Source: Hadesarchaea archaeon
GTDB lineage: Archaea; Hadarchaeota; Hadarchaeia; Hadarchaeales; Hadarchaeaceae
NCBI GenBank assembly: GCA_029259175.1
Contig: JAPDJH010000004.1
Span: 32,001-96,000, forward strand
Length of the DNA: 64,000 bases
Direction of reading: 5' to 3'
Below the pieces are notes generated by a model. That model was not told the DNA's origin and made no database searches. It saw only the letters and a list, made by a program, of their open reading frames with translations. The position numbers were made by a program, and so were the translations under genes. Shown piece after piece: positions 9,074 to 60,504 of this stretch; position 1 is the first letter of the stretch; each line of letters opens with the position of its first letter.

Positions 9074-10513
9074 GTGAGAAAAATGGTTGGGCGATCACGC
9101 TGGCAAAACAATTTCAGCGAGTGGTTCAACGAGATAGTCCAAGTCGCGGAAATAATGGAGACCCGATATCCGGTCAAAGGACTCTACGTATGGTTGCCCT
9201 ACGGACTCAAACTGCGTAACCACGTGATTTCTGCGTTGAAGGAACTGCTCGAGCGAACCGGCCACCGAGAAGTCTTGTTTCCACTCCTGATTCCGGAAAA
9301 CCTGTTCAAAAAAGAAGCCGAGCACATCCGCGGATTCGAAGGACAGGTTTACTGGGTGACTCACGGCGGTCACGACCGATTGGACATCCGGCTGGCCCTC
9401 AGACCCACCTCCGAAACCGCAATGTACCCGATGTTCTCTCTCTGGATTCAATCCCACGCCGACCTGCCATTGAAAATCTACCAAGTGGTCAATGTGTTCC
9501 GTTATGAAACGAAAATGACCAAACCGCTCATCCGACTGCGCGAGGTCACCACCTTCAAGGAGGCACACACCGCCCACGCCACCGCCGAAGACGCCGAACG
9601 CCAGATCCGAGAAGCGATCCAGATCTACAAACAATTTTTCGACAGGCTCTGCATACCCTACATTATAACCAAGCGGCCCAGCTGGGACACTTTTGCCGGT
9701 GCTGTGTACTCCATTGCTTTCGACACGCTGGCACCAGACGGACGGACCCTCCAAATCGGAACCGTTCACAATTTGGGACAGAACTTCTCGAGGGTTTACG
9801 ACGTTCAGTACGAGCGCGTGGACGGCTCTTACGAGCACGTGTACCAGACGTGCTACGGAATTTCGGAGCGAGCTATCGCGGCCCTCATAATGGTGCACGG
9901 GGACGATATCGGGATGTGTCTGCCCCCAGAGTTCGCACCGATTCAGGTGGTCATCGTTCCGATCCCCTACAAGGACGTTCAAGCTCCAATCGAGCAAACG
10001 TGCACCGAAATATATGAAAGGCTCAAGCAAGCGGGTCTAAGGGTCGAGCTCGATCTCCGAGATCTGAGACCAGGAAACAAGTACTATTACTGGGAGCGTC
10101 GCGGAGTGCCACTCCGAATAGAACTCGGCCCTACCGACCACGCAAATCAGAGGGTGACTGCCGTGCGCAGGGACACTGGCGAACGAATCCACGTCCCGCT
10201 TGACCGGGTGGCGGAGCGAGTACCCCAATTATTGAGAGAGATCGAAACGAGCATGAGAAGGCGTGCGTGGGAAGAATTCCGGAAAAGAATAAAAACAATT
10301 GCCAGTGTGGACGAACTCCAAAACGCAATTCACAACCGAAACGTGGGCAGGGTTCCGTGGTGCGGCAATGAGAAGTGCGGCTTGGAAATCGAGGAAAGAG
10401 TAGAGGGAAGTGTGCTGGGCGAAGAACTCTTCACTGAAGCCCCGAAAAACCGTTCGTGTGTGGTGTGCTTCCAGCAAGCAAACAAATGGCTCGTGGTCGC
10501 GCGGACCTATTGA
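9074..10513 (+). CDS. proS: proline--tRNA ligase, archaeal/eukaryotic type
   Basis: YPVKG, LRPTSET, FRYETK, KEAHTAH, QIGTVHNLGQNFS, C-terminal Zn domain ending ARTY. Confidence 0.97.
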   Translation: MRKMVGRSRWQNNFSEWFNEIVQVAEIMETRYPVKGLYVWLPYGLKLRNHVISALKELLERTGHREVLFPLLIPENLFKKEAEHIRGFEGQVYWVTHGGHDRLDIRLALRPTSETAMYPMFSLWIQSHADLPLKIYQVVNVFRYETKMTKPLIRLREVTTFKEAHTAHATAEDAERQIREAIQIYKQFFDRLCIPYIITKRPSWDTFAGAVYSIAFDTLAPDGRTLQIGTVHNLGQNFSRVYDVQYERVDGSYEHVYQTCYGISERAIAALIMVHGDDIGMCLPPEFAPIQVVIVPIPYKDVQAPIEQTCTEIYERLKQAGLRVELDLRDLRPGNKYYYWERRGVPLRIELGPTDHANQRVTAVRRDTGERIHVPLDRVAERVPQLLREIETSMRRRAWEEFRKRIKTIASVDELQNAIHNRNVGRVPWCGNEKCGLEIEERVEGSVLGEELFTEAPKNRSCVVCFQQANKWLVVARTY

Positions 10514-11391
10514 ATTTGCTTCATGGCTTCCAACACTTCTGTTTCTGACGGAAAGCCGACAGGCCCTCGGTACCGGATCTTGAGCCCCGCTGAGGCAGAT
10601 GCGAATCGAGCAGCGTCAACGGCATCGCGCGTGCTGAGATAGCGGCACAAAAACGCTGCACCAAACACGTCACCGGCACCCGTGACATCGAAAACGGGAA
10701 CCTCCAGCGTTTTTACTTCCACGACTCGATCATCGCACAAAATCAATACCGGATCCTTGCCGCGTGTGATTATCACTATCTGCGGTCCGGCCTTCCTGAA
10801 TTCCTCCATGGCTTTCTCAACATCCGCCCCGAGAATGTTTATTTCTTCCAGTCCGACTTTCACCACATCGCAGTGCTTCAAGTAGGGTGAAAGATCTCTC
10901 GGCTTCACTTCCACCTTTCCATCTGCTCCTATCTCGCGGAGCACACCCTGAGGGTCAAACATCACCACCCCGCCCTGAGCCTTCAAATGGGCTAAGAGTT
11001 CTGGCGAGACCTCACCCGCTATGGGTGAAACATAGAATCCGGACGCGTCCAGGTAATCGGCGGGGATGTCCTGCTGTGTGATGGGGGGTGCGATGTGGCG
11101 GCAGACTTGAGTGCGCCGCCCCTGTTCGTCGTAGGTGTTCTCAAAGGTCGTGGTGTGTTCGCCCACGACCACCATCCCTTTGGTGTCCAGCCCCAACTTG
11201 CTGTAAATAGGCGGGAAGAGTTCGACAAAGTCCCTGCCGACCTTGCTGACCAATCCAACGCTCCGGCGCAGGTTTACCGCCGCCAGCCCCGCATAAGTGG
11301 GGGCGCCGCCGAGCACATTCTCTATTGTGCCCCACGGGAAGCGGTTGTGGTCGACTGCCACATGGCCGATGACTATGAGATCAAACGCCAT
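10507..11391 (-). CDS. PfkB/ribokinase-family carbohydrate kinase (candidate myo-inositol kinase)
   Basis: GGAPTY, FDPQG, DVTGAGDVFGAAF; immediately downstream of ino1. Confidence 0.85.
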   Translation of the reverse strand: MAFDLIVIGHVAVDHNRFPWGTIENVLGGAPTYAGLAAVNLRRSVGLVSKVGRDFVELFPPIYSKLGLDTKGMVVVGEHTTTFENTYDEQGRRTQVCRHIAPPITQQDIPADYLDASGFYVSPIAGEVSPELLAHLKAQGGVVMFDPQGVLREIGADGKVEVKPRDLSPYLKHCDVVKVGLEEINILGADVEKAMEEFRKAGPQIVIITRGKDPVLILCDDRVVEVKTLEVPVFDVTGAGDVFGAAFLCRYLSTRDAVDAARFASASAGLKIRYRGPVGFPSETEVLEAMKQIQ

Positions 11392-11392
11392 G

Positions 11393-12466
11393 TCACCGCT
11401 CTCGCTTGCCCTCTATAAACTCTTCCACCATCCGCCTCGCTTCCGTGTCTGGGATCTGAACCGGCGGATGCTTGAAGCAGTACGCTGAGATGCTCGTCAG
11501 CGGTCCGGCGATTTTTCGATCGAGTGCCAGCTTCACGGCACGTATGGCATCAATTACCACTCCGGCACTGTTGGGAGAGTCCTCGACCGATAACTTCACG
11601 TCTAGGTAGAGAGGAACATCTCCGAACTTTCGCCCCTTGATATAGATGTAGCAGATCTTGCGGTCGTTAAGGAAGGGCACGTAATCGCTGGGACCAATCC
11701 GCAACGGCACCTCATAGGGTATCTGGCTTGCCACTGCCTCCGTTTTGCTTATTCGCTTGGAGCTCAGGCGTTCTTCCTCAAGCATGTTGAGAAAATCGGT
11801 GTTGCCCCCAATGTTTAGCTGATAGCTCTCCTCCACCTGCACTCCGCGGTCTATGAGAAGTTTGGTTAGGGTACGATGCAAAATGGTGGCCCCCACTTGC
11901 GACTTTATGTCGTCCCCCGCACACGGCAGACCTGCATCTTCAAATCGCTTTGCCCACTCCTTGTCCGAAACTATGAACTCAGGAATACAGTTTACGAACG
12001 CACAACCGGCTTTGAGGGCTTGCTCGGCATAGAAGCGGGTGCCGTTATAGCTCCCGACCGGCAGGTAATTGATCAGGATCTCGGCTCCGCTGTCCTCGAG
12101 TACCTTGGCAACATCTACTGGTTTCTTGGTCGTGTCCACTTGAATGACGGGTTTGAGATACTTGCCGAGACCGTCCAAGACTGGAGCCTGTTGGACTTCA
12201 ACGTCCAGCTTTGGTACGTCGCTGAACTTGATCGTGCAGTTCGGCGGAGTGAAGATAGCCTCGGCCAAATCCTTGCCCACTTTGTTGGCGTCCACATCGA
12301 AGGCCGCCACGAATTCGATGTCCCGGATGTGGTATCCGCCGAAGTTTACGTGCATCAGGCCTGGAATGAACTGATCCTCGCGCGCGTCCTTGTAGTACTC
12401 CACCCCCTGAACCAGCGAGGACGCACAGTTCCCAACTCCAGCTATCGCTACTCTGATCTTTCCCAT
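11393..12466 (-). CDS. ino1: myo-inositol-1-phosphate synthase
   Basis: [46 protein letters not shown]; start at ATG 12466 after GGAAGGTGA. Confidence 0.96.
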
Positions 12467-12570
12467 CGAAATCACCTTCCAATATCTAAAGTAATTCCTT
12501 ATGATAAAACACGCAGATATTTTTAAGGATTCGCCCCTTTCGTCAGATAGCCGAATTTGGTCCGGGTCCA

Positions 12571-12984
12571 TTACGCCGAGGGGGCAGTCATGGTCGCGGC
12601 CCACGCTTCAGCAGACGTTGGGCTTGCTGCTCCACCGACCGCCGATGCCCACATGTCTCCAGGATAGGTGCCGGTTCCAAATAGTGCACCAGACCAACTG
12701 TCTATCTCTGTAGAAGGCGTCACTGAAGGTGCTACGCTTGGCCCGGGTGCCGTGAGAACCCAAGCACCAATAGCAGCTATTCCAATGATGATCACAGCGG
12801 CCGCAACCCAAGGAAGCCTCTCACTCATCTTGCTCCTCCTCTCCCGCCTGATTTCTTCTTCTACTATTTTTTTCGGTGCCCGAACCCGCTTCGGAGTATA
12901 GTCCAGCCTTACCTTGCACCTCGGGCACTCGCGAGGGTTGGGCACCCGGGGCTTCCACTCATAACCGCAACGAGGGCACTTCAT
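12571..12984 (-). CDS. Zn-ribbon + single-TM membrane protein with Ser/Thr/Pro/Ala-rich tail, function unknown
   Basis: CPRC-x13-CPRC at the N-terminus, hydrophobic [19 protein letters not shown], low-complexity tail; T-rich TATA-like element upstream. Confidence 0.7.
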
Positions 12985-13021
12985 CGGTACATCTTTTCAC
13001 TCTACCATAAAAAAATTTTTT

Positions 13022-13600
13022 CTATGCTAGCCTTCGCTTTGCCACCGCCAATCGATGGATGACGGTGATATGAGACAATGCTGCAACTATTACCAAAGCG
13101 TAACCTATCAAACCGATTAGGCCCCCAAAAGCCAAAATCAGCAGACGCTCGCCACGTTCGGCCACACCCACATCCAGTCTATCTGCGCCAGCCGCTTCAG
13201 CTCGCGCTCTCACATAACTCACAAGCAAGCTACCGGAAAGAGCGAGAAATCCCCACACCCAGCCGGACAATCCAAGAATCTCCGGTGGACCTCCCCACAC
13301 GATGCCCGCGATCACGAAGAAATCCACGTAGCGATCAACCGTGGAATCCAAAACCCCTCCAAAGCGTGTCACTTGGCCAGAAATTCGAGCTACAGCACCA
13401 TCTATGGCGTCTAGCCCTCCACACAAAAGCAGAAAAACTGCTCCCAATGCGTGATTTCCTTGGGCAAACAACAATGCGGAGATCGTCCCAGTTACTAGCC
13501 CTAGAAAGGTGAGCGAATCGGGAGAAATTCCGACTTTGGCCACCTTCTCGGCCACAGGGGTTGTGAGTTTTTCTGCTCGTTCACGTAACCGGCTCAGCAC
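13022..13600 (-). CDS. CDP-alcohol phosphatidyltransferase (archaetidylinositol phosphate synthase-like)
   Basis: DAIDGAVAR...GGVLDSTVDRYVD signature, SYVRARAE, ERGER; start moved to GTG 13600. Confidence 0.9.
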   Translation of the reverse strand: MLSRLRERAEKLTTPVAEKVAKVGISPDSLTFLGLVTGTISALLFAQGNHALGAVFLLLCGGLDAIDGAVARISGQVTRFGGVLDSTVDRYVDFFVIAGIVWGGPPEILGLSGWVWGFLALSGSLLVSYVRARAEAAGADRLDVGVAERGERLLILAFGGLIGLIGYALVIVAALSHITVIHRLAVAKRRLA

Positions 13601-13640
13601 GCCAATCCACAACTTCTTTTTTGACCACAACATAAGAGTT

Positions 13641-14483
13641 ATGGAGAGCATGATATGGCTGGGACCTGCAGGAGTTCCGGTGACTTCTAAAGACCGAAGC
13701 ACGGCTGGAGGCCTGCTACGGGTTAAAGAACTGGGGCTCAACGCCATGGAAGTGGAGTTCGTCAGAGGGGTTACTCTAAGTGTTGAAGCTGCGCGAGAAG
13801 TCGGCAAGATCGCGAAAAAGCTGAAAATCAAACTTTCGGTTCACTGTCCCTACTTCATCAACCTCTGCTCACCCGAGAAAAAGAAAGTGGAAGCTTCAAA
13901 AAAACGCATTATAGAATCTGCAAGGCGTGCTTCAGCCATGGGAGCTGATATCGTTGTCTTCCATCCGGGCTACTACGGAAAACTCTCTCCCGAAGAGGCG
14001 TACGAGTTGGTGAAGAGTGCTGATGAGGACATGGTTGATCGTCTGAGAGGCGAAGGTATTCGAAAGGTTAAGCTGGGACACGAGACCACAGGAAAACTCA
14101 GTGCTTTTGGGACTCTAGATGAAATTGTGCGATTGTGTCGGGAAGTTCCGCAAAGCGTTCCAGTTGTGGATTTTGCCCACATCTACGCGCGCCAAGGCGG
14201 AAAAATCGATTATGAAAAAATTTTTGAAAAGCTTAAGCCCTTGAAACTGAAACACCTGCACGCCCACTTCACGTCGATGGAGTGGACCCCTGCAAAAAAC
14301 GGAAAGGGGGGGAATGAGCGGCGACACCTGCCTCTGAAAGTCGGAAAACCTCCCTTCAAGCCCTTGGCACGAGAAATCCTGAAGCGAAAGATAAACATCA
14401 CTATAATCTCCGAATCTCCGGTGCTGGAGCTCGACTCTTTAGAGATGAAAAAGATTTTCGAAAAGCTAGGTTATCGGTTTTAG
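13641..14483 (+). CDS. nfo: endonuclease IV / AP endonuclease family 2 TIM barrel
   Basis: LGPAG, SVHCPYFINL, VFHPG, ETTGK...FG, DFAH, ISESP; start ATG 13641 or 13650. Confidence 0.88.
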   Translation: MESMIWLGPAGVPVTSKDRSTAGGLLRVKELGLNAMEVEFVRGVTLSVEAAREVGKIAKKLKIKLSVHCPYFINLCSPEKKKVEASKKRIIESARRASAMGADIVVFHPGYYGKLSPEEAYELVKSADEDMVDRLRGEGIRKVKLGHETTGKLSAFGTLDEIVRLCREVPQSVPVVDFAHIYARQGGKIDYEKIFEKLKPLKLKHLHAHFTSMEWTPAKNGKGGNERRHLPLKVGKPPFKPLAREILKRKINITIISESPVLELDSLEMKKIFEKLGYRF

Positions 14484-15728
14484 TTTCTTGATCGCTTTCT
14501 CAACGCCCATCTGTTCTTGCTTCCCCGACTTCATATCCCGGAGCACCACACGCCCAGCCGCTCGCTCCGCCGGGCCTATGAGCACCACGTAAGATACGCC
14601 GAGCGCGTTCGCGTGGGCGAGGGATTTCGCGAGCTTTCGATCGGCGAGCTCTAATTCAGTGGAGATGCCTTGGCGTCGGAAGTCCAATGCTATTCTAAAG
14701 GCCTCTGGAACGTCTTCTCCCGTAACGGGGATCACCATCACTTTTGGTTCCGTGGAAAACGACAGAGATTTCGATTCTAGAACCAGCTTGGCCAAACGAT
14801 CGACGCCGAACCCCACGCCTGTGGCGGGGGTGGGGGGTCCGCCTAGCGTTTCAACGAGAGTATCATAACGTCCCCCGCCAGCGACCTGCACCCCCCGCAC
14901 GTAGATCTCAAAAACCACTCCGGTGTAGTAATCGAGCCCGCGCGCTATGCTCAAATCGACGCTGAACGGTATTTTCAAAGAGCGCAAGAAATTCAGGATT
15001 CGAGCAAAGTCCTGCAGAGAAGACCTGTCGACAAAAGTTGACGGAAGTTCCTCCAGGACATCCGGTGTGCCCTTGGTGGAAAACACCTTTTTGAGTTCTT
15101 GGGCTCTGTCACTGCTCATGCCCGCCCGCTTCAGTTCACGGTCAATGCGCTCTTCATCTTTAGAATCTACGGCGCGGAGGATTGGATCTTGGTCTCTTTC
15201 TTGAACTCCCGATGCCCTGAGGGCCCTGCGAAGGATGTCCACGTTGCCTATTCGTAGATCCCAAGAGGAGAACCCCAATTCCCTCATTGCTTCAGTAGCG
15301 GTAAGGATCACTTCAACATCGCACGCGGGGTTGCTGCTCCCTATCACTTCGGCCCCGGCTTGGTAGAACTGTCTCCACCGGAAGGCTTGGGGCTCCTCAT
15401 AGCGGAAGCAGTGCCCAAAGTAGCAGAGCTTGAGTGGTTTTGGTGCGGACTTGAGATGCTGAGCATAGAGCCGGATCACGGGCGCTGTGAGCTCCGGTCT
15501 CAGGGCCAGATCGCGGCCGGATTTGTCTCTGAACGCGTAGAGCTGTTTAACCACCTCGCTGCCGCTCTTGCGTGTAAACAAGTCCAAATGTTCAAACATG
15601 GGTGTCTCGACCTCCTGATATCCGAATCTTTGAAACACTGAAGCGAGAGTTTTGGTGACCCCGCGTATGCTATTCAGTTCCTCTCCCATGAGGTCCCGAG
15701 TTCCTCGAGGGGTCTGAAAATCAGTCAA
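14466..15728 (-). CDS. hisS: histidine--tRNA ligase
   Basis: PRGTRD, LRPELTAP, FRYEEPQ, RQFYQ, RGLDYYTG, GGGRYD. Confidence 0.97.
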   Translation of the reverse strand: MTDFQTPRGTRDLMGEELNSIRGVTKTLASVFQRFGYQEVETPMFEHLDLFTRKSGSEVVKQLYAFRDKSGRDLALRPELTAPVIRLYAQHLKSAPKPLKLCYFGHCFRYEEPQAFRWRQFYQAGAEVIGSSNPACDVEVILTATEAMRELGFSSWDLRIGNVDILRRALRASGVQERDQDPILRAVDSKDEERIDRELKRAGMSSDRAQELKKVFSTKGTPDVLEELPSTFVDRSSLQDFARILNFLRSLKIPFSVDLSIARGLDYYTGVVFEIYVRGVQVAGGGRYDTLVETLGGPPTPATGVGFGVDRLAKLVLESKSLSFSTEPKVMVIPVTGEDVPEAFRIALDFRRQGISTELELADRKLAKSLAHANALGVSYVVLIGPAERAAGRVVLRDMKSGKQEQMGVEKAIKKLKPIT

Positions 15729-17938
15729 GTGATCACCGAATGATTTACTTTGTAAATCCTAACATATTGGTTCGAACTGGTAAAGACTTCATCCAAGAAA
15801 TCAATGCCCCCCACGTCACGGATGGCCACCGGCAGCTCACGGTTCGAGACCTCGGCGGAAACCCCCTCGACCAGTTTGGCTTGGGTCACCTGATTGTTAT
15901 TCACGAAGACCAGCAGGGTTTCGTCGATGGCGGGGGATGAGGGCGAATAGAACTGAGCAGAGTAGTCAAAGCGGCGGCCTCCGATCAAAGACGGGTTATA
16001 GAAGAGAAATGCAAATCCGTCCAGTTCTTGCTGGGAGCCTCCCGACTCCACGTACGCGCGGCCAGCATTCTGGTCGACTACCACTCGCTCACGGCCGGAA
16101 CCGAAGTTGAAAACCAGTTTGTTTCCTTCCTGCGTGATGCTAGTGGTGCTCCGGAGCTCCGGTGAACCCAAAAGGATCGGAACAGGTTCCCAGTACTGAT
16201 AGTACTTGTAGGCGTTGGAGATCTCGTCTATGGTGAACAAAATATAGTCGATGCACACACCATACTCATCGCGATAGGTCTTCAGGTACCATCGCAGCTC
16301 GTTCTCGGTTGAGTAGGGGAAGAACTGAATGTCTGGTCTGCGTCCGTTCACCGTGTACGCGCGCGCGCCCTCGTTGACCCCGTACATGTAAGCTCGGCCG
16401 TTTTTGACATAGTAAATGTAATCCGGCGGGCGAGGCGTGAAAGATGGGTTGTTCTCCCATGTCCCCTCTTGGGCTGTGACCTCAGTTCCGTCCACAACAG
16501 TCATGCGATCGGTCGCGCCAGTTAAGAGGTGGCCAAAAGACCATTGAATCGAGATAATATCGTTTTCAGATGTGTTGGTCTGAATCCAGTCGAAAGCCTC
16601 CATGAGAGCGGGATCAAGACCAATTCCGTGCCATTCAGTTGGAGGGGTGGTAACACGGGCAGCGGAGACCGCATTGTAAAAAAACGCGGCAGAGAAGAAG
16701 AGAACCACCACCAACACCAGCAAAGGGCGCTGAAAGCTTTTCAGCCATTCCCAGTTGGGATCGAAGCTCAGATCTCTGAGCCACCGAACAATGGTCGCTG
16801 CCCCCAGTCCAGCCATAACGGGGACGAAAGGCCACCACACACGCTCAAAACGGGCTTGTCCCTTGCCCGGCCATATGAGTGCCAATAAGACGATAAGGGT
16901 GGCCAGCAACAATAAATGGGGTCTCTGCCGCTTCCAGATACACAGAATCAAGGTCACTCCGACGAAGAGGAGAACAATGTTTGTGATTAATGGATCTCGG
17001 TAAAAAGATCCTATCACGTCGTTCAGAGAAGAAGGAGCCTGCATCTCCGACGCGTAACGGGGAAAGGCGATCCCCGCTCCCCCGCCGAGCGGAATTCCCA
17101 GATATCCGAGCATGGTGGTGGAAAAACCAATCCAAAAGTTAGGAGAAAGCCCTGTGAGCCCACAGTAGACAATCGTGGCTATCACCAAAACCGCGATACA
17201 CCCTAAGAGAAACTGAAAGTGGGTTTTAATCGCGTGATAGGCTGCACCATAGAGGTCGTCAAAGCGTTTCATCAACTTGCCTCCAAAAGCTAGTAAAAGC
17301 ACGAAAATTATCCCTAGCGCCAACGCAGCTGTGATATAGAGCGCCCCCGTCCAGCAGAAAAGGAACAATCCCATGAGAAGACCGGCCAGCAGGGTATCTC
17401 GCGCTAGCGTTTCTCGGTTGGTCTTGAACAAGCGGACTAATCCGTAGAAAGTCCACGAAGCGAACAGGGTTATGGTCGGCTCACGGTCAAATGCCCCGAT
17501 CTTGTGCCAATAGATAGTGGAGACCATGGTGGCCATAAAGAAGACCGCAAAAATGCCGGCCGCGCGCCCGCCGAGTTCTCGAGCCGTCAGATAGACAGGG
17601 ATGAGGGTCAAGCAAAAAAGAAAGGGACCGTAAAATCTAACTACATCCATTAAAGAAACGGAAGGCGACAGTGCATGAACTCCCCGATAAATCATCACGG
17701 CAAGCAGGGGTTGAAGCTGCTGAGGCTCGAACTTCCATCCATACGGGGCGTGCGACCAAGGATTGGTCTCTGCCAGCCCATTGGTTGAGTTGATTACCTT
17801 GGCCTCATCATATACCCAGCCACTGTCGGAGGTCGTGAGAGTGTCATAGCGCTCACCCGGTATAGACACTATTGAGAACGAGAGCCACATCATCGCAAGT
17901 AGATAGACAACTATTGCCCATTTCCAATATCTGCCCAT
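15725..17938 (-). CDS. aglB: STT3/AglB-family oligosaccharyltransferase with non-canonical WWDYG motif (QWSFG)
   Basis: Multi-TM N-terminal part with TTSD, FDRE, ASE and ARF at the expected catalytic positions; soluble domain A..WI..NT..D....QWSFGH......R.TV.DG. Confidence 0.85.
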   Translation of the reverse strand: MGRYWKWAIVVYLLAMMWLSFSIVSIPGERYDTLTTSDSGWVYDEAKVINSTNGLAETNPWSHAPYGWKFEPQQLQPLLAVMIYRGVHALSPSVSLMDVVRFYGPFLFCLTLIPVYLTARELGGRAAGIFAVFFMATMVSTIYWHKIGAFDREPTITLFASWTFYGLVRLFKTNRETLARDTLLAGLLMGLFLFCWTGALYITAALALGIIFVLLLAFGGKLMKRFDDLYGAAYHAIKTHFQFLLGCIAVLVIATIVYCGLTGLSPNFWIGFSTTMLGYLGIPLGGGAGIAFPRYASEMQAPSSLNDVIGSFYRDPLITNIVLLFVGVTLILCIWKRQRPHLLLLATLIVLLALIWPGKGQARFERVWWPFVPVMAGLGAATIVRWLRDLSFDPNWEWLKSFQRPLLVLVVVLFFSAAFFYNAVSAARVTTPPTEWHGIGLDPALMEAFDWIQTNTSENDIISIQWSFGHLLTGATDRMTVVDGTEVTAQEGTWENNPSFTPRPPDYIYYVKNGRAYMYGVNEGARAYTVNGRRPDIQFFPYSTENELRWYLKTYRDEYGVCIDYILFTIDEISNAYKYYQYWEPVPILLGSPELRSTTSITQEGNKLVFNFGSGRERVVVDQNAGRAYVESGGSQQELDGFAFLFYNPSLIGGRRFDYSAQFYSPSSPAIDETLLVFVNNNQVTQAKLVEGVSAEVSNRELPVAIRDVGGIDFLDEVFTSSNQYVRIYKVNHSVIT

Positions 17939-17986
17939 GTATACCCTTTAAAATGAAGCGCAGAAGGTTTAAGAATGTGTAGAAGC

Positions 17987-18262
17987 CTACTTCTTTTTCT
18001 TCTTTTCCTCTTTGGGGCTCTCCGTAACTGGTGCCACTTCTTTCGTGGTTGCCATGATCCACCCGAGCCAGACGCCGAGCGCTGAAACCACCCATACACC
18101 TACCGCCACAGGAATAACGATGAACCAAGACGAAGTCGTCGCGTACTCGAAGAGACCAAAGTTAAGCCAACCGAGTTTTGCCAGCACGAAGCCCACGTAC
18201 AACGCGAACACGATGGCCCCGACAACACAGAGCACTGCACCAAGGGCTCTTGTCTTTCCCAA
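17987..18262 (-). CDS. small two-TM membrane protein, DPM2/PIG-P-like pattern
   Basis: Two hydrophobic helices, IPVAVG...G.W.G.IMATT, Lys-rich tail; TTG start preceded by GGGGTGA. Confidence 0.75.
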   Translation of the reverse strand: MGKTRALGAVLCVVGAIVFALYVGFVLAKLGWLNFGLFEYATTSSWFIVIPVAVGVWVVSALGVWLGWIMATTKEVAPVTESPKEEKKKKK

Positions 18263-18293
18263 ACACTCACCCCCTTATCTCTCACAAAACCGC

Positions 18294-18331: not shown

Positions 18332-18409
18332 GGGCCCGTAGCCTAGCCAGGATAGGGCGTCGGCCTTCTAAGCCGAAGGTCGTGGGTTCGAATCCCACCG
18401 GGCCCGCCA
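18332..18409 (+). tRNA. tRNA-Arg(TCT), intronless, CCA encoded
   Basis: Acceptor stem GGGCCCG/CGGGCCC, anticodon arm TCGGC-CTTCTAA-GCCGA, T arm GTGGG-TTCGAAT-CCCAC, 3' GCCA. Confidence 0.97.
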
Positions 18410-18566: not shown

Positions 18567-19382
18567 TCACAGCACCCACGTCTTGATTAGTGTGTACAGA
18601 CCGAGTGCGATTACCAACACACCTAGACCTGTTTTTATCCTCCGCTCAGATCTAAATTTAGCGGTAATGCGTGGCCCTACCCATCCTCCTACTGTCGCTC
18701 CAACGAGCAGAGGCATGAGTAAGTTGCTACTCGGTATGCCCTTTGTGAGCACGTAAGTGGCAAATCCGGTAAGACAGATGGGTATCTCAGACGAGGTGGT
18801 CGCCCCAATGGTCTCCTTCGACCTCCTGCCAGCGATCAGCTGGCCGGTGGTGACCACTGGACCAAACCCTCCGCCCGAAATTCCCTTGTTGAACGCGCTC
18901 AGAACGCCTACCCCGAAGATCTTCTTCCAAGAGAAGCCGAATACACTCCTCGAGAGCAGTACAACTCCCATGACGATAACCAGCACGCCTATGTAGGTCT
19001 TGAGCGCGGTCTTCGGGATACTCACGGCCGTTAGGGCCCCCACACACGTTGCCAGCACGCCAGCCGCTGAGATAATAAAGACCACTTTCAAATCCCTGCT
19101 TAGACTTCGCTTAAAAGTCTCGATGTACCCCAGCTCTGCCAGCCTCTGCCTAATATTTTTCTCTACCCTGTACTCCACATGCCCGAGCTTGTGATGTTTC
19201 ACACTCGCAATGAACCCTCCAATTGCCTGTGAGAGCAAGATGGAGGGAATAACTGCAACCGGATTGTATCCCGCAGTTATGAGGGCTGGTGATAGAATGG
19301 TCCCGTAAAGCATTCCTAGGGACGAGTCAATGATTTCGCACCCGCACGCCAGCGCCGCCAACAAAAGAAGGCCCGAATCCAT
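18567..19382 (-). CDS. TauE/SafE (TSUP) family membrane transporter
   Basis: EIIDSSLGMLYGT and FNKGISGGGFGP repeats, multi-TM; start moved to ATG 19382. Confidence 0.88.
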   Translation of the reverse strand: MDSGLLLLAALACGCEIIDSSLGMLYGTILSPALITAGYNPVAVIPSILLSQAIGGFIASVKHHKLGHVEYRVEKNIRQRLAELGYIETFKRSLSRDLKVVFIISAAGVLATCVGALTAVSIPKTALKTYIGVLVIVMGVVLLSRSVFGFSWKKIFGVGVLSAFNKGISGGGFGPVVTTGQLIAGRRSKETIGATTSSEIPICLTGFATYVLTKGIPSSNLLMPLLVGATVGGWVGPRITAKFRSERRIKTGLGVLVIALGLYTLIKTWVL

Positions 19383-19393
19383 TCTTTTACCCC

Positions 19394-20182
19394 TCAACTC
19401 TTGGTCCTTAGGAACTCTTTTTCCAGCACTCTGAAGACATCTTGAGGCTGCTCTATTTCCTCCTCCACGTTCACCGTGATGAGAACCGCTCGCTCGAGGT
19501 GGTCTCCCTTCAGCTCCCCGTAGGGAGTTCGCTTGGGGAGGGTCTGCACCTTGGCCTCGCCGAACGAGCAGAACCCGTGATCGGAAATCAAAATGAGCTT
19601 GTTGGTCTCGCTCGGCAGAAAGCCAGTATCCCACACGAGCTCCCCAATTTTCTCGTCTAGTTTTTTGTACCACTCTAGAACCACGGGTTCGCCCCAGTGG
19701 AAATGCTGAACTCTATCCAGCAGCGTGAACACCGAAATCAGAAGATCTGGCTTCCAAGTCAGCAGCTCCTTCGTTGTTTCGGTGACCCGCTCGAGTTCCT
19801 CCTCCCATTCCTTTTCGTTGCTGGGCAGGCCGAAACCCACCGGCCTGAAATCCACGTTGAAGGAGTAGGGCGGCACCACAAACGGGACGTTCAAAACTCG
19901 AACATCTATCTTGTCCTTCAAAATATCCCAGATGAACTTTACGGGGATATCTTCTCTTTTTACTATCTTGCCATCTTTTGTAAACTCCAAGTGTCCGTGC
20001 TCCTCAACGGTCTTTCCAGAAAACATCCCGCACCAGATCGCTGCAGAAATTGGTTTTTCTCTGAGCACGATTTCTTTTGCCTTCCCTGCTTGGATAAGCC
20101 TCGCAAAATTCTTCAAAACTTTTAGATTTGGGCGAATAACGTTCCAGCTTGCTCCGTCGATGCCTAAAACGAAAAACGTCAA
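19394..20182 (-). CDS. alkaline-phosphatase-superfamily protein (nucleotide pyrophosphatase/phosphodiesterase-like)
   Basis: LGIDGA, PISAAIW..MFSG, DRVQH, ISDHGF, GDH. Confidence 0.85.
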   Translation of the reverse strand: MTFFVLGIDGASWNVIRPNLKVLKNFARLIQAGKAKEIVLREKPISAAIWCGMFSGKTVEEHGHLEFTKDGKIVKREDIPVKFIWDILKDKIDVRVLNVPFVVPPYSFNVDFRPVGFGLPSNEKEWEEELERVTETTKELLTWKPDLLISVFTLLDRVQHFHWGEPVVLEWYKKLDEKIGELVWDTGFLPSETNKLILISDHGFCSFGEAKVQTLPKRTPYGELKGDHLERAVLITVNVEEEIEQPQDVFRVLEKEFLRTKS

Positions 20183-21405
20183 CTCGATACCTCCAAGGCC
20201 ACTCCTGCCCCGATATTTTTTCCATTTTTCATTATGACGAATCTACCAAGTTCTGGAATATCTGGATACCGCTCCACCACCATAGGTTCACGGAGAGATA
20301 GTACCATTAGTGCTGCTTCGTTTATGTCAACGACAGAGGGCTGTTTTTCAACAATCGCCCCGGTTTCTGTGTCGATTTTCTCAAGAATGTTCTGCACCCG
20401 CGCTGGCACGGCCGCAGTACCACACTTGACCACTATTGTTTCGTTCTTTCTCAGACGATCGAGCAGGAGAACCACTTCTCCTTTTATCTCTGTAACTTTT
20501 TTAGGTGGCGACTCCGCAAGACCGAACACTTCACCTCTCCGCGGAATTACGCTACTTATTACTCCCACGCACTCGCCTGGCTTGGCTTCGCTCCGCTCGC
20601 CTTCGTACACGCGGATTTGCTGAACTATTGCCGGTCTTCCCGAAGGCTCGAAAACCCCTTTCGCCCCTTTTCTCAGCACGCCGCTTTCCACTCGTCCAAC
20701 AACAATTTTTTCTCCATCCACCTCATACACGTCCTGCACAACAAATCTCAACGGTTTGTCCAATTCCCTGCTTTTTATCGGAATAGCATCCAGTGCCTCG
20801 ATCAGGGTCTTCTTCGCCCAAGGCATCTTAGTAGAGCGGCGGTAAACATTCTCTCCTTCTATGGCGGAGATCGGCACGAAACTTATCTTGTCCAAATCAA
20901 ACCCTAGGGAATCTAAAAATTCCTTCATCGCGTTGTGGATCCTTTCAAACGGTTCTTTTTGATATCTTACAGCATCCATCTTGTTTACGGCGACCACCAA
21001 GTGTTCGATTCCGAGTAGTTTGAGCAGAAACACGTGTCTGCGGGTCTGCTCCTCTATCCCTTCCTGCGCTGACACTATTACGATCGCCGCGTCTGCTTGA
21101 GAAGCACCAGTTAGCATGTTTTTGAGAAACTCTTTGTGACCTGGAGAGTCGATAATAGTGTAAAGACGATTCTTACCTTTGAAAAACACCCGTGTAGACT
21201 CTATGGTCATCTGTTCTTTTCGCTCTTCTTCGAGCGCATCTAGGAAATAAGCGAACTCGAATCTCCGTTTCAGCTCCTCAGCATATTTTTGAATCTCCTC
21301 TACACGATCGTCGGTGACACTCTCACCATCATATAGCAAGCGTCCTATAGTGGTGGATTTCCCGTGATCCACATGACCAACGAAAACCACGTTGACGCTC
21401 TCCAT
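20179..21405 (-). CDS. cysN: sulfate adenylyltransferase GTPase subunit (no fused APS kinase)
   Basis: GHVDHGKST, AYFLDALEEER, DSPGH, NMLTGASQAD, NKMD; adjacent to cysD. Confidence 0.88.
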   Translation of the reverse strand: MESVNVVFVGHVDHGKSTTIGRLLYDGESVTDDRVEEIQKYAEELKRRFEFAYFLDALEEERKEQMTIESTRVFFKGKNRLYTIIDSPGHKEFLKNMLTGASQADAAIVIVSAQEGIEEQTRRHVFLLKLLGIEHLVVAVNKMDAVRYQKEPFERIHNAMKEFLDSLGFDLDKISFVPISAIEGENVYRRSTKMPWAKKTLIEALDAIPIKSRELDKPLRFVVQDVYEVDGEKIVVGRVESGVLRKGAKGVFEPSGRPAIVQQIRVYEGERSEAKPGECVGVISSVIPRRGEVFGLAESPPKKVTEIKGEVVLLLDRLRKNETIVVKCGTAAVPARVQNILEKIDTETGAIVEKQPSVVDINEAALMVLSLREPMVVERYPDIPELGRFVIMKNGKNIGAGVALEVSS

Positions 21406-21416
21406 TACCGTCCCGC

Positions 21417-22229
21417 CTACATGTATCCAAGCGCCCGGAGTTTCTGCATCATGAAAGCCTGTTCTTTATCCTGTGCTCGTCCGGCCCGCTCAGCGGTTTT
21501 GGTTCGCTCCAATTCCTCAATGATCTTGTCAATCGTGTCGGCGTTAGAATCGATTGGATTCGTGCATGGCATGCAACCCAAACTTCTGTATCTCTTCCCG
21601 TTTCGAGCAAAATACATGGGGTTAACAGGGATGCCCTCACGTTTTATGTAGCGCCAAATATCGATCTCCCGCCAGTGGAGCATCGGGTGCACACGTGTGT
21701 GGGTGGCCTCTTCTGAGGCCTTTTCATACTGATCCCACATCTCCAACGGTTGATCGCGATAGTCCCATCGGAAGTTGGCATCGCGGAGGCTGAAATACCT
21801 CTCCTTTGCCCGGATACCGTGCTCGTCTCTTCGGATTGCCAAAAGGAGGGCATCGAATCCGTGTTTTTTCATTGCTATCTGAAGAGCCTGCGTTTTGAGA
21901 GCAGTACAACAAGCAAGCTTTCCCTTTTCGGGACCCATTCCACTCTTCAACGCCTCTTCGTTCCGAGCAATTATCAAATTTAGCCCCCATTTTCTCACCC
22001 ACTTGTCCCTGAACTCGTACATCTCTGGAAACTTCCGCCCCGTGTCAATATGGATGACCGGAAATGGCACTTTTCCATAGAAAGCCTTGCGACACAGCCA
22101 GAGGAGAGTGGTAGAGTCCTTTCCCATACTCCAGAGCATGGCTGGTTTCTTGAACTGCGCTTTTGCTTCCCTAATGATGTAGATACTCTGATTCTCGAGC
22201 TGATCTAGATAATCCCCCACGCACATCAC
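21417..22229 (-). CDS. cysD: sulfate adenylyltransferase subunit 2
   Basis: LENQSIYIIRE, WSMGKDS, HIDTG, RRDEHGIRAKER, YRSLGC, ERAGRAQD. Confidence 0.94.
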   Translation of the reverse strand: MMCVGDYLDQLENQSIYIIREAKAQFKKPAMLWSMGKDSTTLLWLCRKAFYGKVPFPVIHIDTGRKFPEMYEFRDKWVRKWGLNLIIARNEEALKSGMGPEKGKLACCTALKTQALQIAMKKHGFDALLLAIRRDEHGIRAKERYFSLRDANFRWDYRDQPLEMWDQYEKASEEATHTRVHPMLHWREIDIWRYIKREGIPVNPMYFARNGKRYRSLGCMPCTNPIDSNADTIDKIIEELERTKTAERAGRAQDKEQAFMMQKLRALGYM

Positions 22230-58851: not shown

Positions 58852-59523
58852 TTATTGTTTAGCCAATATGCCGCTCACACGCAATTTTATCAGTTTGAAG
58901 AAGATGTTTATTCCACTGGCAATAGTGGTGCCTCTAGCTTTGGAATAAGGAGTAAAAAAACAACGAACAGGGACTCCAACCACTTTCATGTTTTTTAGTT
59001 TTGCTTGAATCAGAATTTCGGATGATACCTCGTATCGAGAGCTTCTAATTTTTATATTTTGAAGGGCTTTTTTGCTGAAAACCCTCAATCCAGACTGCGA
59101 ATCCATCAGATATCCTCCCAGCATTCTAGTTATGAAATTCAAGAGAAAATTTCCGACCCGCTTATGAAAAGGAGGATTGACAAACACACGTTGACCGATA
59201 ACCAAATCAGCGTTTTTCAAATTTTTAACAAGCTGACGCACGGCTTTTGGATCGTGCTGACCATCCGCATCAAAAGTCACGACACAGTCCGCTCCTAACT
59301 CGCGTGCTTTTGAAAGACCCGTCCGTAACGCGGCACCCAATCCCATGTTGCGCGGGTGTCTGACCACAATTGCGCCCATGCGTTTAGCAATCGATCCAGT
59401 ACGGTCTTTAGAGCCGTCGTCAACAACGATGATATTGTGCCAGCCCTCGGCCTTCAGCTCTTTTAACACCTTGCCTATCATTCGCTCCTCGTTGTATGCC
59501 GGAATGACGATCCAAACTTTCAC
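58852..59523 (-). CDS. GT2, dolichol-phosphate glycosyltransferase (DPM1-like), soluble short form
   Basis: IPAYNEE, VDDGS.D, N.G.G.A..TG, DADGQH, DSQSG.R. Confidence 0.9.
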   Translation of the reverse strand: MKVWIVIPAYNEERMIGKVLKELKAEGWHNIIVVDDGSKDRTGSIAKRMGAIVVRHPRNMGLGAALRTGLSKARELGADCVVTFDADGQHDPKAVRQLVKNLKNADLVIGQRVFVNPPFHKRVGNFLLNFITRMLGGYLMDSQSGLRVFSKKALQNIKIRSSRYEVSSEILIQAKLKNMKVVGVPVRCFFTPYSKARGTTIASGINIFFKLIKLRVSGILAKQ

Positions 59524-60443: not shown

Positions 60444-60504
60444 GGACTCAACACCCTCTACGTTTAGGGTTATAAAAATCCCCGAACATATTGTTTTTGA
60501 TTCT

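What the first reader, a model, noticed from the sequence alone, without database searches (positions are those of the whole stretch)
17987..18262. DPM2-like two-TM micro-protein directly upstream of aglB
Seen: a 91-aa protein, G......IVFALY..FVL / loop / IPVAVG......G.....IM.TKEV, co-oriented 48 nt upstream of aglB. Recalled from memory, not searched: human DPM2 (about 84 aa) has G......IIFTYY..WVI / loop / IPLAAG......G.....VM.TKRV with matching spacing. Established: DPM2 is an accessory subunit of both Dol-P-Man synthase and GPI-GlcNAc transferase, and archaeal OST is considered single-subunit. Inference: this could be an archaeal DPM2/PIG-P relative acting as an AglB accessory subunit, or as a membrane partner for the TM-less DPM1-like GT2 at 58852-59523.
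Basis: partly seen in the sequence, partly recalled or inferred. Interest (0 to 1): 0.75.

Follow-up and report, generated by a model that had tools for sequence, protein, structure and literature searches.

The report
DPM2-like membrane hairpin gene beside aglB
This small two-helix membrane protein is a real, diverged archaeal relative of the eukaryotic glycosylation helper subunits DPM2 and PIG-P, and in this phylum its gene always sits just ahead of the protein-glycosylating enzyme AglB, but whether the two work together is still unproven.

Summary
A 91-aa ORF (17987-18262, minus strand) starts at TTG behind a strong Shine-Dalgarno site. It lies 48 nt upstream of a complete AglB/STT3 gene and folds as a two-helix hairpin.

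The DPM2/PIG-P kinship is supported, though not by the direct Pfam hit, which is below cut-off (19.6 bits against 27.3). The Hadarchaeota subfamily links by profile-profile comparison (99% probability, E 4e-18) to Asgard members, three of which pass Pfam's DPM2 cut-off (54, 41 and 30 bits).

The family is near-universal in the three phyla searched: Hadarchaeota 57 of 66 genomes, Thermoproteota 273 of 301, Asgard 107 of 121. Its archaeal origin is already in print (Nature 2025).

The new point is that the window's gene belongs to a diverged, Hadarchaeota-only clade ("type H"). In 22 of 23 type-H loci with downstream DNA it sits 18-86 nt upstream of aglB. Five Hadarchaeota genomes also keep canonical copies elsewhere, none near aglB.

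No physical partner is shown. A mirror-tree test gave no excess co-evolution with AglB. The prediction linking the family to enzymes that lack membrane helices failed in Thermoproteota. Outside Hadarchaeota the family often neighbours sugar-nucleotide genes.

Verdict: a new variant of a known kind, of moderate interest.

The parts
17987..18262 (-). Gene for the 91-aa two-helix DPM2/PIG-P-like protein, Hadarchaeota 'type H'. The conserved end of helix 2 reads G-x-W-L-G-W-I-M-A-T-T-K-E, followed by a Lys/Glu-rich tail.
   Evidence: ORF. Family alignments. Pfam DPM2 is the top hit at 19.6 bits, below cut-off. hhalign to Bathyarchaeia kin gives 99.3% and to Asgard kin 99.0%. AF2 hairpin. Type-H clade with SH-aLRT 100.
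18267..18274 (-). Shine-Dalgarno-like GGGGGTGA, 4 nt before the TTG start.
   Evidence: Read directly from the sequence.
17939..17986 (-). 48-nt spacer between the hairpin gene and aglB. It holds no run of five or more T, so co-transcription is possible but not shown.
   Evidence: Sequence. The spacer is 18-86 nt in the 21 related type-H loci that have aglB downstream.
15725..17938 (-). aglB/STT3, the complete catalytic subunit of the oligosaccharyltransferase (737 aa, about 13 membrane helices plus an external domain).
   Evidence: Pfam STT3. AF2 pLDDT 87.4. Full-length Foldseek matches to PglB, yeast and human STT3 and A. fulgidus AglB, E 4e-17 to 5e-13. It was the only match over its full length in the genome; the other seed hits were long proteins matched, as I read it, through the Ig-like domain of one seed.
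14466..15728 (-). Histidyl-tRNA synthetase. It overlaps the aglB stop by 4 nt and belongs to the same conserved block.
   Evidence: Pfam. Synteny in Hadarchaeota loci.
58852..59523 (-). 223-aa GT2 without membrane helices, related to polyprenyl-phosphate mannose synthase. It is the candidate alternative partner.
   Evidence: Pfam GT2. The best solved relative is P. furiosus Dol-P-Man synthase 5mlz, E 1.6e-16, over the catalytic part only. No hydrophobic segment. One of only three GT2 genes in the genome. Found in 47 of 66 Hadarchaeota genomes and 25 of 26 high-quality ones; all 16 orthologues extracted are 218-228 aa.
18332..18409 (+). tRNA-Arg(TCT), divergent from the hairpin gene. It marks the upstream edge of the unit.
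   Evidence: ARAGORN.

Best explanation
The gene encodes a diverged, Hadarchaeota-specific branch ('type H') of the near-universal archaeal DPM2/PIG-P-like hairpin family.

Shown: it is a conserved 2-helix membrane protein. It is homologous to proteins that pass Pfam's DPM2 threshold. Its gene is kept directly upstream of aglB throughout most of the phylum.

Inferred: both ends face the cytoplasm, because the N-terminus is basic (K3, R5) and the C-terminal tail is Lys/Glu-rich. The invariant W-L-G-W-I-M-A-T-T-K-E stretch at the cytoplasmic end of helix 2 would be a docking surface.

Proposed mechanism: like DPM2 in eukaryotes, it is a small non-catalytic membrane subunit. It would pack against, and stabilise or tune, an enzyme of the dolichol-linked glycosylation pathway. 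In Hadarchaeota it would be made together with AglB and serve N-glycosylation.

Which enzyme it touches is open. The candidates are AglB itself or the Dol-P-hexose synthase-like GT2 that has no membrane helices.
For: Homology:
- Pfam DPM2 is the top hit over nearly the full model (3-73 of 75, E 1.1e-3).
- phmmer links the protein to Bathyarchaeia-type kin at 2.6e-7 in a library of 1.84 billion proteins.
- hhalign of the Hadarchaeota profile gives 99.3% (E 1.5e-20) against Bathyarchaeia-type kin and 99.0% (E 4.1e-18) against Asgard kin.
- 3 of 8 Asgard members pass the DPM2 cut-off at 54.2, 40.9 and 29.9 bits.
- Among 20 kin scanned, P0045 passes the DPM2 cut-off (27.9 bits) and P0049 passes the PIG-P cut-off (40.1 bits).
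- A 2025 paper (passages read) treats DPM2 and PIGP as a pre-LECA duplication in a family of archaeal origin (PMC12872463).

Linkage:
- aglB lies downstream on the same strand at 18-86 nt in 22 of 25 type-H loci (21 related loci plus the window). That is 22 of the 23 with downstream DNA.
- Type H is one clade (18 rows, SH-aLRT 100) on a long stem. The 8 canonical copies from 5 Hadarchaeota genomes fall outside it with the other phyla, and 0 of 8 lie within 4 kb of aglB.

Glycosylation context elsewhere:
- A sugar-nucleotide or glycan gene lies within 500 nt in 9 of 20 Thermoproteota loci and 8 of 20 Asgard loci. These are NTP_transferase, PGM/PMM, PGI/PMI-like SIS, epimerase/GDP-Man dehydratase, UDP-GlcNAc 2-epimerase, flippase and DUF1616.
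- Adjacent genes are of these kinds in 8 of 40 (Asgard) and 9 of 40 (Thermoproteota), against 0 of 102 and 3 of 135 for genes four or more positions away.

A plausible client exists: the genome's only Dol-P-Man-synthase-like GT2 has no membrane helix.
Against: - The window protein itself is below both Pfam cut-offs.
- Among the 22 Hadarchaeota-type proteins scanned, an unrelated hairpin model (Phage_holin_3_6) matches more members than DPM2 does: 17 against 15, all below cut-off. Composition therefore contributes to these hits.
- 4 of 7 Thermoproteota members show no DPM2 or PIG-P hit at all.
- The aglB block also keeps HisRS, an AP_endonuc_2 gene, a CDP-alcohol transferase and inositol-1-P synthase. 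Plain conserved synteny could explain the adjacency.
- No aglB was found within 5 kb in the 96 non-Hadarchaeota loci, although only Hadarchaeota AglB seeds were used.
- Mirror-tree correlations over 17 loci: hairpin with the AglB membrane domain 0.54, hairpin with HisRS 0.64. The partial correlation with AglB is only 0.22.
- AglB is complete by itself.
- The neighbour enrichment is biased, because the seed families were picked from the adjacent genes themselves.
- In Bathyarchaeia the usual neighbour is S-adenosylhomocysteine hydrolase, in 39 loci.
- The only fusions found are to HhH/DUF4332 domains, not to glycosylation enzymes.
Confidence: 0.55

Rival explanations
1. It is a true second subunit of the Hadarchaeota oligosaccharyltransferase. 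Type H arose as a diverged copy of the DPM2-like hairpin that now packs against the AglB membrane domain, making this archaeal OST a two-subunit enzyme.
For: - Near-invariant order of hairpin then aglB: 22 of 23 loci with downstream DNA, and 7 of 7 copies.
- The linkage follows the diverged clade and not the canonical copies, 0 of 8 of which are near aglB.
- The deepest Hadarchaeota genome (G001) has an intermediate motif and no aglB linkage.
- The family's usual TTPPPKP motif is replaced by TTKEV.P in type H.
- By sequence, this AglB is closest to eukaryotic STT3A/B, enzymes that do work with small membrane subunits.
Against: - HisRS is held in the same block.
- No excess co-evolution with AglB.
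- AglB has the full fold.
- DPM2 and PIG-P are not OST subunits in eukaryotes (established knowledge; review passages in PMC7728079).
- L018 has the type-H gene without aglB.
Confidence: 0.25
2. It is the membrane partner or regulator of the Dol-P-hexose synthase-like GT2 that lacks membrane helices (58852-59523). Together they would form a split, human-type ('type II') synthase, and the position next to aglB would reflect only a shared pathway.
For: - Homology to DPM2, whose known role is with Dol-P-Man synthase (PMC7728079 and PMC5526996, passages).
- The GT2 matches P. furiosus DPMS only over the catalytic part and has no membrane helices.
- The GT2 and the hairpin are each found in 25 of 26 high-quality Hadarchaeota genomes.
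- Gandini et al. note similarity of PfDPMS helices 1 and 3 to human DPM2.
- Kin in other phyla sit beside PMI-like, PMM-like and NTP-transferase genes, the kinds needed for GDP-mannose supply.
Against: - The two genes are about 40 kb apart in the window.
- In Thermoproteota, 9 of 11 genomes without the hairpin have a best GT2 match that lacks membrane helices. In contrast, 8 of 11 genomes with the hairpin have a best match carrying two membrane helices (orthology not established).
- Human DPM2 binds DPM3 rather than DPM1, and no DPM3 homologue was found here (best E 0.068, below cut-off).
- The family profiles did not match the 5mlz chain at E<=10.
Confidence: 0.3
3. It acts like PIG-P: a subunit of a GlcNAc-inositol-phospholipid synthase, the archaeal counterpart of GPI-GnT.
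For: - Kin score on the PIG-P model, up to 40.1 bits.
- The conserved Hadarchaeota block holds inositol-1-phosphate synthase and a CDP-alcohol phosphatidyltransferase 4-6 kb downstream.
- One GT4 in the genome has a marginal PIGA-domain signal: 24.6 bits by hmmscan, and 27.8 when summed over the frame.
- A 2026 paper infers an Asgard origin for GPI-GnT (PMC12872458, passages).
Against: - The PIGA signal sits at or below the cut-off.
- No PIG-L was found.
- No PIG-C was found, but that control matched nothing in any genome, so the result is uninformative.
- The inositol genes are separated from the hairpin by aglB, HisRS and an oppositely oriented gene.
Confidence: 0.08
4. It has no dedicated glycosylation role. 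It would be a generic conserved membrane hairpin whose charged cytoplasmic tail recruits something else, and the position next to aglB is inherited gene order.
For: - The dominant neighbour in Bathyarchaeia is S-adenosylhomocysteine hydrolase (39 loci).
- Neighbourhoods are otherwise variable.
- Fusions are to HhH/DUF4332 domains.
- The synteny includes HisRS.
- Weak hits go to many hairpin families.
Against: - Homology to DPM2/PIG-P.
- Recurrent neighbours in sugar-nucleotide or glycan pathways, in several arrangements across three phyla.
Confidence: 0.2

Closest known systems
DPM2 (Pfam PF07297), the regulatory subunit of human-type Dol-P-Man synthase and an enhancer of GPI-GlcNAc transferase
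   Same: - Similar size, with two membrane helices.
- Near full-length alignment to the model (3-73 of 75).
- Linked by profile to Asgard proteins that pass the model's cut-off.
- A catalytic Dol-P-Man-synthase-like GT2 without membrane helices is present in the genome.
   Different: - The window protein scores 19.6 bits against a cut-off of 27.3.
- It carries a Lys/Glu-rich tail of about 17 residues.
- No DPM3 was found.
- The gene is tied to aglB, which is not a known DPM2 partner.
- No binding data exist.
PIG-P (Pfam PF08510), a subunit of GPI-GlcNAc transferase
   Same: - Two-helix hairpin followed by a cytoplasmic tail.
- 17 of 20 kin scanned (mostly Bathyarchaeia-type) match PIG-P at E<=0.1, most at 1e-8 to 4e-10, over helices and tail. 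One of them is above the cut-off.
   Different: - The window protein matches only at E 0.014, 15.6 bits.
- No clear PIG-A, PIG-C or PIG-L set was found in the genome.
Canonical archaeal DPM2/PIG-P-like hairpin family (Asgard, Thermoproteota, some Hadarchaeota)
   Same: - The same fold.
- Shared columns: G8, P51, W65, G67, W68, M70, T72, T73 and P78.
- Near-universal core gene.
   Different: - Type H replaces the TTPPP(K/E)P(I/L)EE motif with TTKEV.P.
- It forms its own clade on a long stem.
- It is the only branch found linked to aglB.
C-terminal membrane domain of P. furiosus type-III Dol-P-Man synthase (PDB 5mlz)
   Same: Gandini et al. propose that its two helix pairs correspond topologically to DPM2 and DPM3, and that helices 1 and 3 resemble human DPM2 (PMC5526996, passages).
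   Different: The family profiles gave no sequence match to 5mlz at E<=10. In P. furiosus the helices are fused to the enzyme; here the hairpin is a separate gene.

Membership tests
DPM2 (PF07297) / PIG-P (PF08510) hairpin superfamily | Score above the curated Pfam cut-off for the protein itself | tested here: not met
   DPM2 scores 19.6 bits against 27.3, and PIG-P 15.6 against 39.3. None of the 22 Hadarchaeota-type proteins scanned listed DPM2 better than E 2.7e-4.
DPM2 (PF07297) / PIG-P (PF08510) hairpin superfamily | Significant profile link to proteins that do pass the cut-off | tested here: met
   hhalign of the Hadarchaeota alignment A1 against the Asgard alignment A6 gives 99.0%, E 4.1e-18. 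The first three rows of A6 (the L116, L113 and L118 proteins) score 54.2, 40.9 and 29.9 bits on DPM2. A1 against the Bathyarchaeia-type alignment A3 gives 99.3%. A3 holds P0049, at 40.1 bits on PIG-P, and P0045, at 27.9 bits on DPM2.
DPM2 (PF07297) / PIG-P (PF08510) hairpin superfamily | Small protein with two membrane helices forming a hairpin, both ends in the cytoplasm | tested here: met
   AF2 gives helices 3-30 and 46-72. The orientation is inferred only from the basic N-terminus and the charged tail in the sequence.
DPM2 (PF07297) / PIG-P (PF08510) hairpin superfamily | Physical association with Dol-P-Man synthase (through DPM3) or with GPI-GnT | not testable with these tools
   No binding data can be obtained here. 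The DPM3 model's best match in the genome is E 0.068, 13.8 bits, below its cut-off of 25.
DPM2 (PF07297) / PIG-P (PF08510) hairpin superfamily | A catalytic partner of the DPM1 type (no membrane helix) is present in the same genome | tested here: met
   The 223-aa GT2 is closest to 5mlz over the catalytic part and has no hydrophobic segment. It is conserved without membrane helices in 16 of 16 Hadarchaeota orthologues extracted.
DPM2 (PF07297) / PIG-P (PF08510) hairpin superfamily | GPI-GnT core partners (PIG-A, PIG-C) are present in the same genome | tested here: inconclusive
   The PIGA domain scores 24.6 bits by hmmscan and 27.8 summed over the frame, against a cut-off of 27. There was no PIG-C hit, but that control matched no genome. 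There was no PIG-L hit. The genome is 91% complete.
Accessory subunit of an oligosaccharyltransferase | Gene linkage to the catalytic STT3/AglB gene conserved beyond general synteny | tested here: inconclusive
   Linkage is found in 22 of the 23 type-H loci with downstream DNA and follows the type-H clade only. However, HisRS is co-conserved, linkage is 0 of 96 outside the phylum, and there is no extra co-evolution.
Accessory subunit of an oligosaccharyltransferase | Stable binding to STT3/AglB and an effect on its activity | not testable with these tools
   This needs co-purification and an enzyme assay.

The most novel reading that the evidence does not exclude
Type H is a genuine non-catalytic subunit of the Hadarchaeota oligosaccharyltransferase. 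It would have been recruited from the DPM2/PIG-P hairpin family after a duplication. That would make it the first accessory OST subunit outside eukaryotes, and an independent example of the small-subunit accretion seen in the eukaryotic OST.
Probability: 0.2. Interest if true: 0.8.

Novelty: new variant of a known kind. Interest (0 to 1): 0.45.

Why it matters
Archaeal and bacterial oligosaccharyltransferases are described as single-subunit enzymes; the search listing shows that usage. The eukaryotic enzyme carries several small membrane subunits whose origins are unclear.

The DPM2/PIG-P family is one of the few small ER membrane subunits traced to archaea (PMC12872463), yet no archaeal member has a known partner. 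Hadarchaeota offer a concrete handle: a diverged paralogue locked to aglB, which in some genomes sits alongside a canonical copy.

That turns 'what do archaeal DPM2-like proteins bind?' into a simple pair of pull-down and activity experiments. It would also show whether accessory subunits of lipid-linked glycosylation enzymes predate eukaryotes.

If the adjacency is only synteny, the finding is an ordinary member of a known family.

Tried and rejected
- **Complex prediction.** I sent three chains: AglB residues 1-470, the 223-aa GT2, and the hairpin as partner. The answer was 'no answer' with score 0.00, and the controls were not run. This is no evidence either way. Ten earlier hand-ins of a two-chain job were not accepted because the queue was full.
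- **Fold search of the hairpin model against the PDB.** Nothing reached E<=0.001; the best rows were generic helical hairpins.
- **Profile searches of the PDB with A1, A3 and A5.** No DPM2, PIG-P or 5mlz chain appeared at E<=10. I could not tell whether DPM2 or PIG-P chains are in that copy at all. As a result I could not run a direct profile-profile comparison with eukaryotic DPM2 or PIG-P alignments, because no tool returned those sequences.
- **NCBIfam.** No family model matched.
- **Metatranscriptome contigs.** Four runs of one sample cover parts of aglB at low depth. None covers the hairpin gene or bridges the spacer, so nothing can be said on expression or co-transcription.
- **Search for fused forms.** Only HhH/DUF4332 fusions were found, and the tool warns that absence is weak evidence.
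- **Split-gene idea (the hairpin supplies helices missing from AglB).** Rejected, because the AglB model has the full STT3 fold.
- **Redundant search.** It was meant to sample another phylum. The 'Methanocella' MAG used as its centre lies in the same phylum as the Bathyarchaeia centre, so the search only repeated Thermoproteota.
- **Phyla not searched.** Halobacteriota, Methanobacteriota and Thermoplasmatota were not searched, because I had no handle in them.
- **Pfam models over control genomes.** PF08510 matched none of the 14 named control genomes at E<=0.01. PF07297 matched 9 of them at E<=10, none over the cut-off.
Full report
**1. The observation**

The ORF 17987..18262 (minus strand, 91 aa, TTG start) exists as described. 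GGGGGTGA lies 4 nt before the TTG, and a TATA-like TCTTTTTAAG lies about 25-35 nt upstream of it. The next gene on the same strand, 48 nt downstream, is a 737-aa STT3/AglB homologue at 15725..17938. Its stop overlaps the start of histidyl-tRNA synthetase by 4 nt. A divergent tRNA-Arg(TCT) lies upstream.

AlphaFold2 with the family alignment gives a hairpin of helices 3-30 and 46-72. The N-terminus is basic and the C-terminal tail is Lys/Glu-rich. I therefore infer that both ends face the cytoplasm; this was not measured.

**2. It is a real, conserved gene**

- The word-indexed search gave 21 relatives at E<=0.01. Two carry Hadarchaeota names.
- phmmer over 1.84 billion representatives gave 24 hits at E<=1e-3. 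One, P0024, is a 714-aa repeat protein that I judged spurious and left out.
- The hits fall into a Hadarchaeota type, ending helix 2 with WLGWIMATTKEV.P, and a second type with WIGWTMATTPPPKPIEE.
- A profile of both types found more than 2000 proteins at E<=0.1. Most of the 120 listed carry a precomputed PIG-P tag.

**3. Is it DPM2/PIG-P-like?**

For the window protein alone the answer is weak. DPM2 is the top Pfam hit over almost the whole model, but at 19.6 bits against a cut-off of 27.3. PIG-P scores 15.6 bits.

Among the 22 Hadarchaeota-type proteins scanned, an unrelated hairpin model (Phage_holin_3_6) matches 17 and DPM2 matches 15, all below cut-off. Composition therefore contributes to these hits.

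The case rests on a chain of profiles:
- Of 20 more distant kin, 17 match PIG-P at E<=0.1, most at 1e-8 to 4e-10. P0049 passes the PIG-P cut-off at 40.1 bits. P0045 passes the DPM2 cut-off at 27.9 bits.
- Of 8 Asgard members, 3 pass the DPM2 cut-off at 54.2, 40.9 and 29.9 bits, and 7 list DPM2 or PIG-P at E<=0.01.
- Of 7 Thermoproteota members, 4 list neither.
- hhalign joins the Hadarchaeota alignment to the Bathyarchaeia-type alignment at 99.3% (E 1.5e-20) and to the Asgard alignment at 99.0% (E 4.1e-18).

I could not compare directly with eukaryotic DPM2 or PIG-P alignments, because no tool returned those sequences.

In print (passages read in each case):
- A 2008 paper states that PIG-A, but not the accessory subunits, had been found in archaea (PMC2446393).
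- A 2025 paper lists the DPM2/PIGP divergence as a pre-LECA duplication of archaeal origin (PMC12872463).
- A 2026 paper infers an Asgard origin of GPI-GnT (PMC12872458).

Eight earlier notes of this scan, on Asgard genomes, reached the same family assignment. These are leads, not independent evidence.

**4. Distribution**

| Phylum | Genomes with a match at E<=1e-3 |
|---|---|
| Hadarchaeota | 57 of 66 (25 of 26 high-quality) |
| Thermoproteota (sample, profile A2) | 273 of 301 |
| Thermoproteota (sample, wider profile A5) | 187 of 201 |
| Asgard (sample) | 107 of 121 |

Euryarchaeal phyla were not searched. The window's genome holds one copy.

**5. Gene neighbourhood**

I examined 121 loci: 80 from public genomes, the window, 20 Thermoproteota and 20 Asgard.

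Type-H loci (25, including the window):
- 22 have aglB downstream on the same strand at 18-86 nt.
- L002 and L020 end at the contig edge.
- L018 has no aglB nearby.
- The block continues with HisRS, an oppositely oriented AP_endonuc_2 gene, a CDP-alcohol phosphatidyltransferase and inositol-1-phosphate synthase. Synteny by itself is therefore a sufficient explanation.

Other loci:
- The Bathyarchaeia-type gene follows S-adenosylhomocysteine hydrolase in 39 loci.
- No aglB was detected within 5 kb of the 96 non-Hadarchaeota loci. Only Hadarchaeota AglB seeds were used for that search.
- Elsewhere a sugar-nucleotide or glycan gene lies within 500 nt in 9 of 20 Thermoproteota, 8 of 20 Asgard and 7 of 56 other loci.
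- Adjacent genes are of these kinds in 9 of 40 (Thermoproteota) and 8 of 40 (Asgard). For genes four or more positions away in the same loci the figures are 3 of 135 and 0 of 102.

This contrast is inflated, because I chose the seed families from the adjacent genes. Several loci also share one arrangement by descent.

**6. The new point: type H is a separate paralogue-like clade**

Five Hadarchaeota genomes have two or three copies. I fetched these copies, plus the copies of three single-copy genomes, two of them type H (G062, G025) and one the deep-branching G001:
- The 7 type-H copies all sit 42-63 nt upstream of aglB and HisRS.
- The 8 other copies carry the canonical ...WIGWTM.(S/T)TP(S/T)PEP... 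motif or a variant of it. They lie elsewhere, with 0 of 8 within 4 kb of aglB. Two of them are near epimerase, GT4 or NTP-transferase genes.
- The deepest genome (G001) has one copy with an intermediate motif, next to a UDP-GlcNAc 2-epimerase-like gene, and no aglB.

In a quick maximum-likelihood tree (75 rows, 110 columns, SH-aLRT support only), type H is one clade with support 100 on the longest internal branch. The canonical Hadarchaeota copies and G001 fall with Bathyarchaeia and Thermoproteota at weak support, 82. The tree has few columns and is unrooted, so I cannot say whether type H arose by duplication within the phylum or whether the canonical copies were acquired later.

**7. Tests of the two partner hypotheses**

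AglB:
- The model (pLDDT 87.4) has the full STT3 fold and matches PglB, STT3 and AglB over its full length. Nothing is missing for the hairpin to supply.
- Pairwise-distance correlations over 17 loci are 0.54 for hairpin against the AglB membrane domain, 0.64 for hairpin against HisRS, and 0.65 for AglB against HisRS. The partial correlation with AglB is 0.22. This gives no sign of special co-evolution, though the test is weak for a 91-aa protein.

GT2:
- The genome has only three GT2 genes, all in the window.
- The 223-aa GT2 is closest to P. furiosus Dol-P-Man synthase over the catalytic part (E 1.6e-16) and lacks membrane helices.
- It is as conserved in the phylum as the hairpin, in 47 of 66 genomes and 25 of 26 high-quality ones. 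It lacks membrane helices in all 16 orthologues extracted.
- The prediction that the hairpin goes with synthases lacking membrane helices failed in Thermoproteota. Of 14 genomes without the hairpin, 11 had a GT2 match, and in 9 of those the best match lacked membrane helices. Of 14 genomes with the hairpin, 11 had a match, and in 8 of those the best match carried two membrane helices. Orthology was not established there. In yeast, the DPM2 homologue works with a Dpm1 that does have a membrane helix (PMC7728079). The failed prediction therefore weakens the 'missing anchor' idea rather than a DPM2-like role.
- No DPM3 homologue was found.

**8. Reading**

The family assignment is secure at about 0.9. 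A role as a small non-catalytic subunit in dolichol-linked glycosylation is the best-supported mechanism at about 0.55 overall. It rests on homology and recurring context, not on any binding evidence.

Within that reading, AglB (about 0.25) and the Dol-P-hexose synthase-like GT2 (about 0.3) are both live partners. A PIG-P-like role with an inositol-lipid GlcNAc transferase is a minor option. A role unrelated to glycosylation keeps about 0.2.

**9. Novelty**

The family and its link to eukaryotes are known. The aglB-locked, diverged Hadarchaeota clade, which in some genomes coexists with canonical copies, came up in none of my six literature searches; none of them used the term Hadarchaeota. 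The eight earlier scan notes do not mention it either. I did not open the supplements of PMC12872463 and PMC12872458; these may list Hadarchaeota members.

Noticed in passing
window 15725-17938 (-): By sequence, the Hadarchaeota AglB profile matches only eukaryotic STT3A/STT3B and yeast STT3 among solved chains (best E 2e-19). It does not match A. fulgidus AglB or PglB at E<=1e-3. By fold it matches all of them. This archaeal OST therefore looks closer to the eukaryotic STT3 lineage.
   Followed up: partly
window 22783-60905: A large sugar-nucleotide and glycan gene island. It holds a flippase-like Polysacc_synt gene, UDP-Glc/GDP-Man dehydrogenase, three NTP_transferases, asparagine synthase, three GT2 and several GT4 genes, RmlD-like and other epimerases, a DegT aminotransferase, an ATP-grasp ligase, a FemAB-like acyltransferase and a polysaccharide deacetylase.
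   Followed up: partly
window 18567-22229 (-): Directly upstream of the tRNA lies a run of four genes: a TauE/SafE-type exporter, a type I phosphodiesterase-like gene, an EF-Tu-like GTPase and a PAPS_reduct-family protein. From my own knowledge of those families, the last two resemble the CysN/CysD sulfate adenylyltransferase pair. That would suggest sulfate activation next to the glycosylation genes.
   Followed up: no
window 10507-13831 (-): Inositol-1-phosphate synthase, a CDP-alcohol phosphatidyltransferase and a PfkB kinase lie together. The first two travel with the hairpin-aglB-HisRS block in many Hadarchaeota loci.
   Followed up: partly
P0040, P0165-P0179; L204 5004-5459: Sixteen proteins of about 290 aa fuse the DPM2-like hairpin to C-terminal HhH_5 and DUF4332 domains. 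One Hadarchaeota canonical copy (G049b) has a similar helix-hairpin-helix-like extension. The meaning is unknown.
   Followed up: no
family profile A5: The family profile gives a marginal match (E 0.019, 18 bits) to the first two membrane helices and the following segment of human DHHC20 palmitoyltransferase. This is probably chance or convergent.
   Followed up: no
L002 1-1974 (-), L004: In one Hadarchaeota clade a second AglB-like gene lies divergently upstream of the hairpin gene, at 164-167 nt. In L004 the gene is thus flanked by two OST-like genes.
   Followed up: no
L075, L057, L020: Records titled Methanocella sp. and Sulfotelmatobacter sp. carry Bathyarchaeia-type loci with the same synteny. 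The genome of the first falls in the same phylum as a Bathyarchaeia genome in the tool's grouping. A record titled Hodarchaeaceae is grouped with Hadarchaeota. The labels on these public records look unreliable.
   Followed up: partly
window 59520-60905 (-): The 461-aa ORF is probably over-called at its 5' end, because the epimerase/dehydratase domain starts only at residue 155-157.
   Followed up: no
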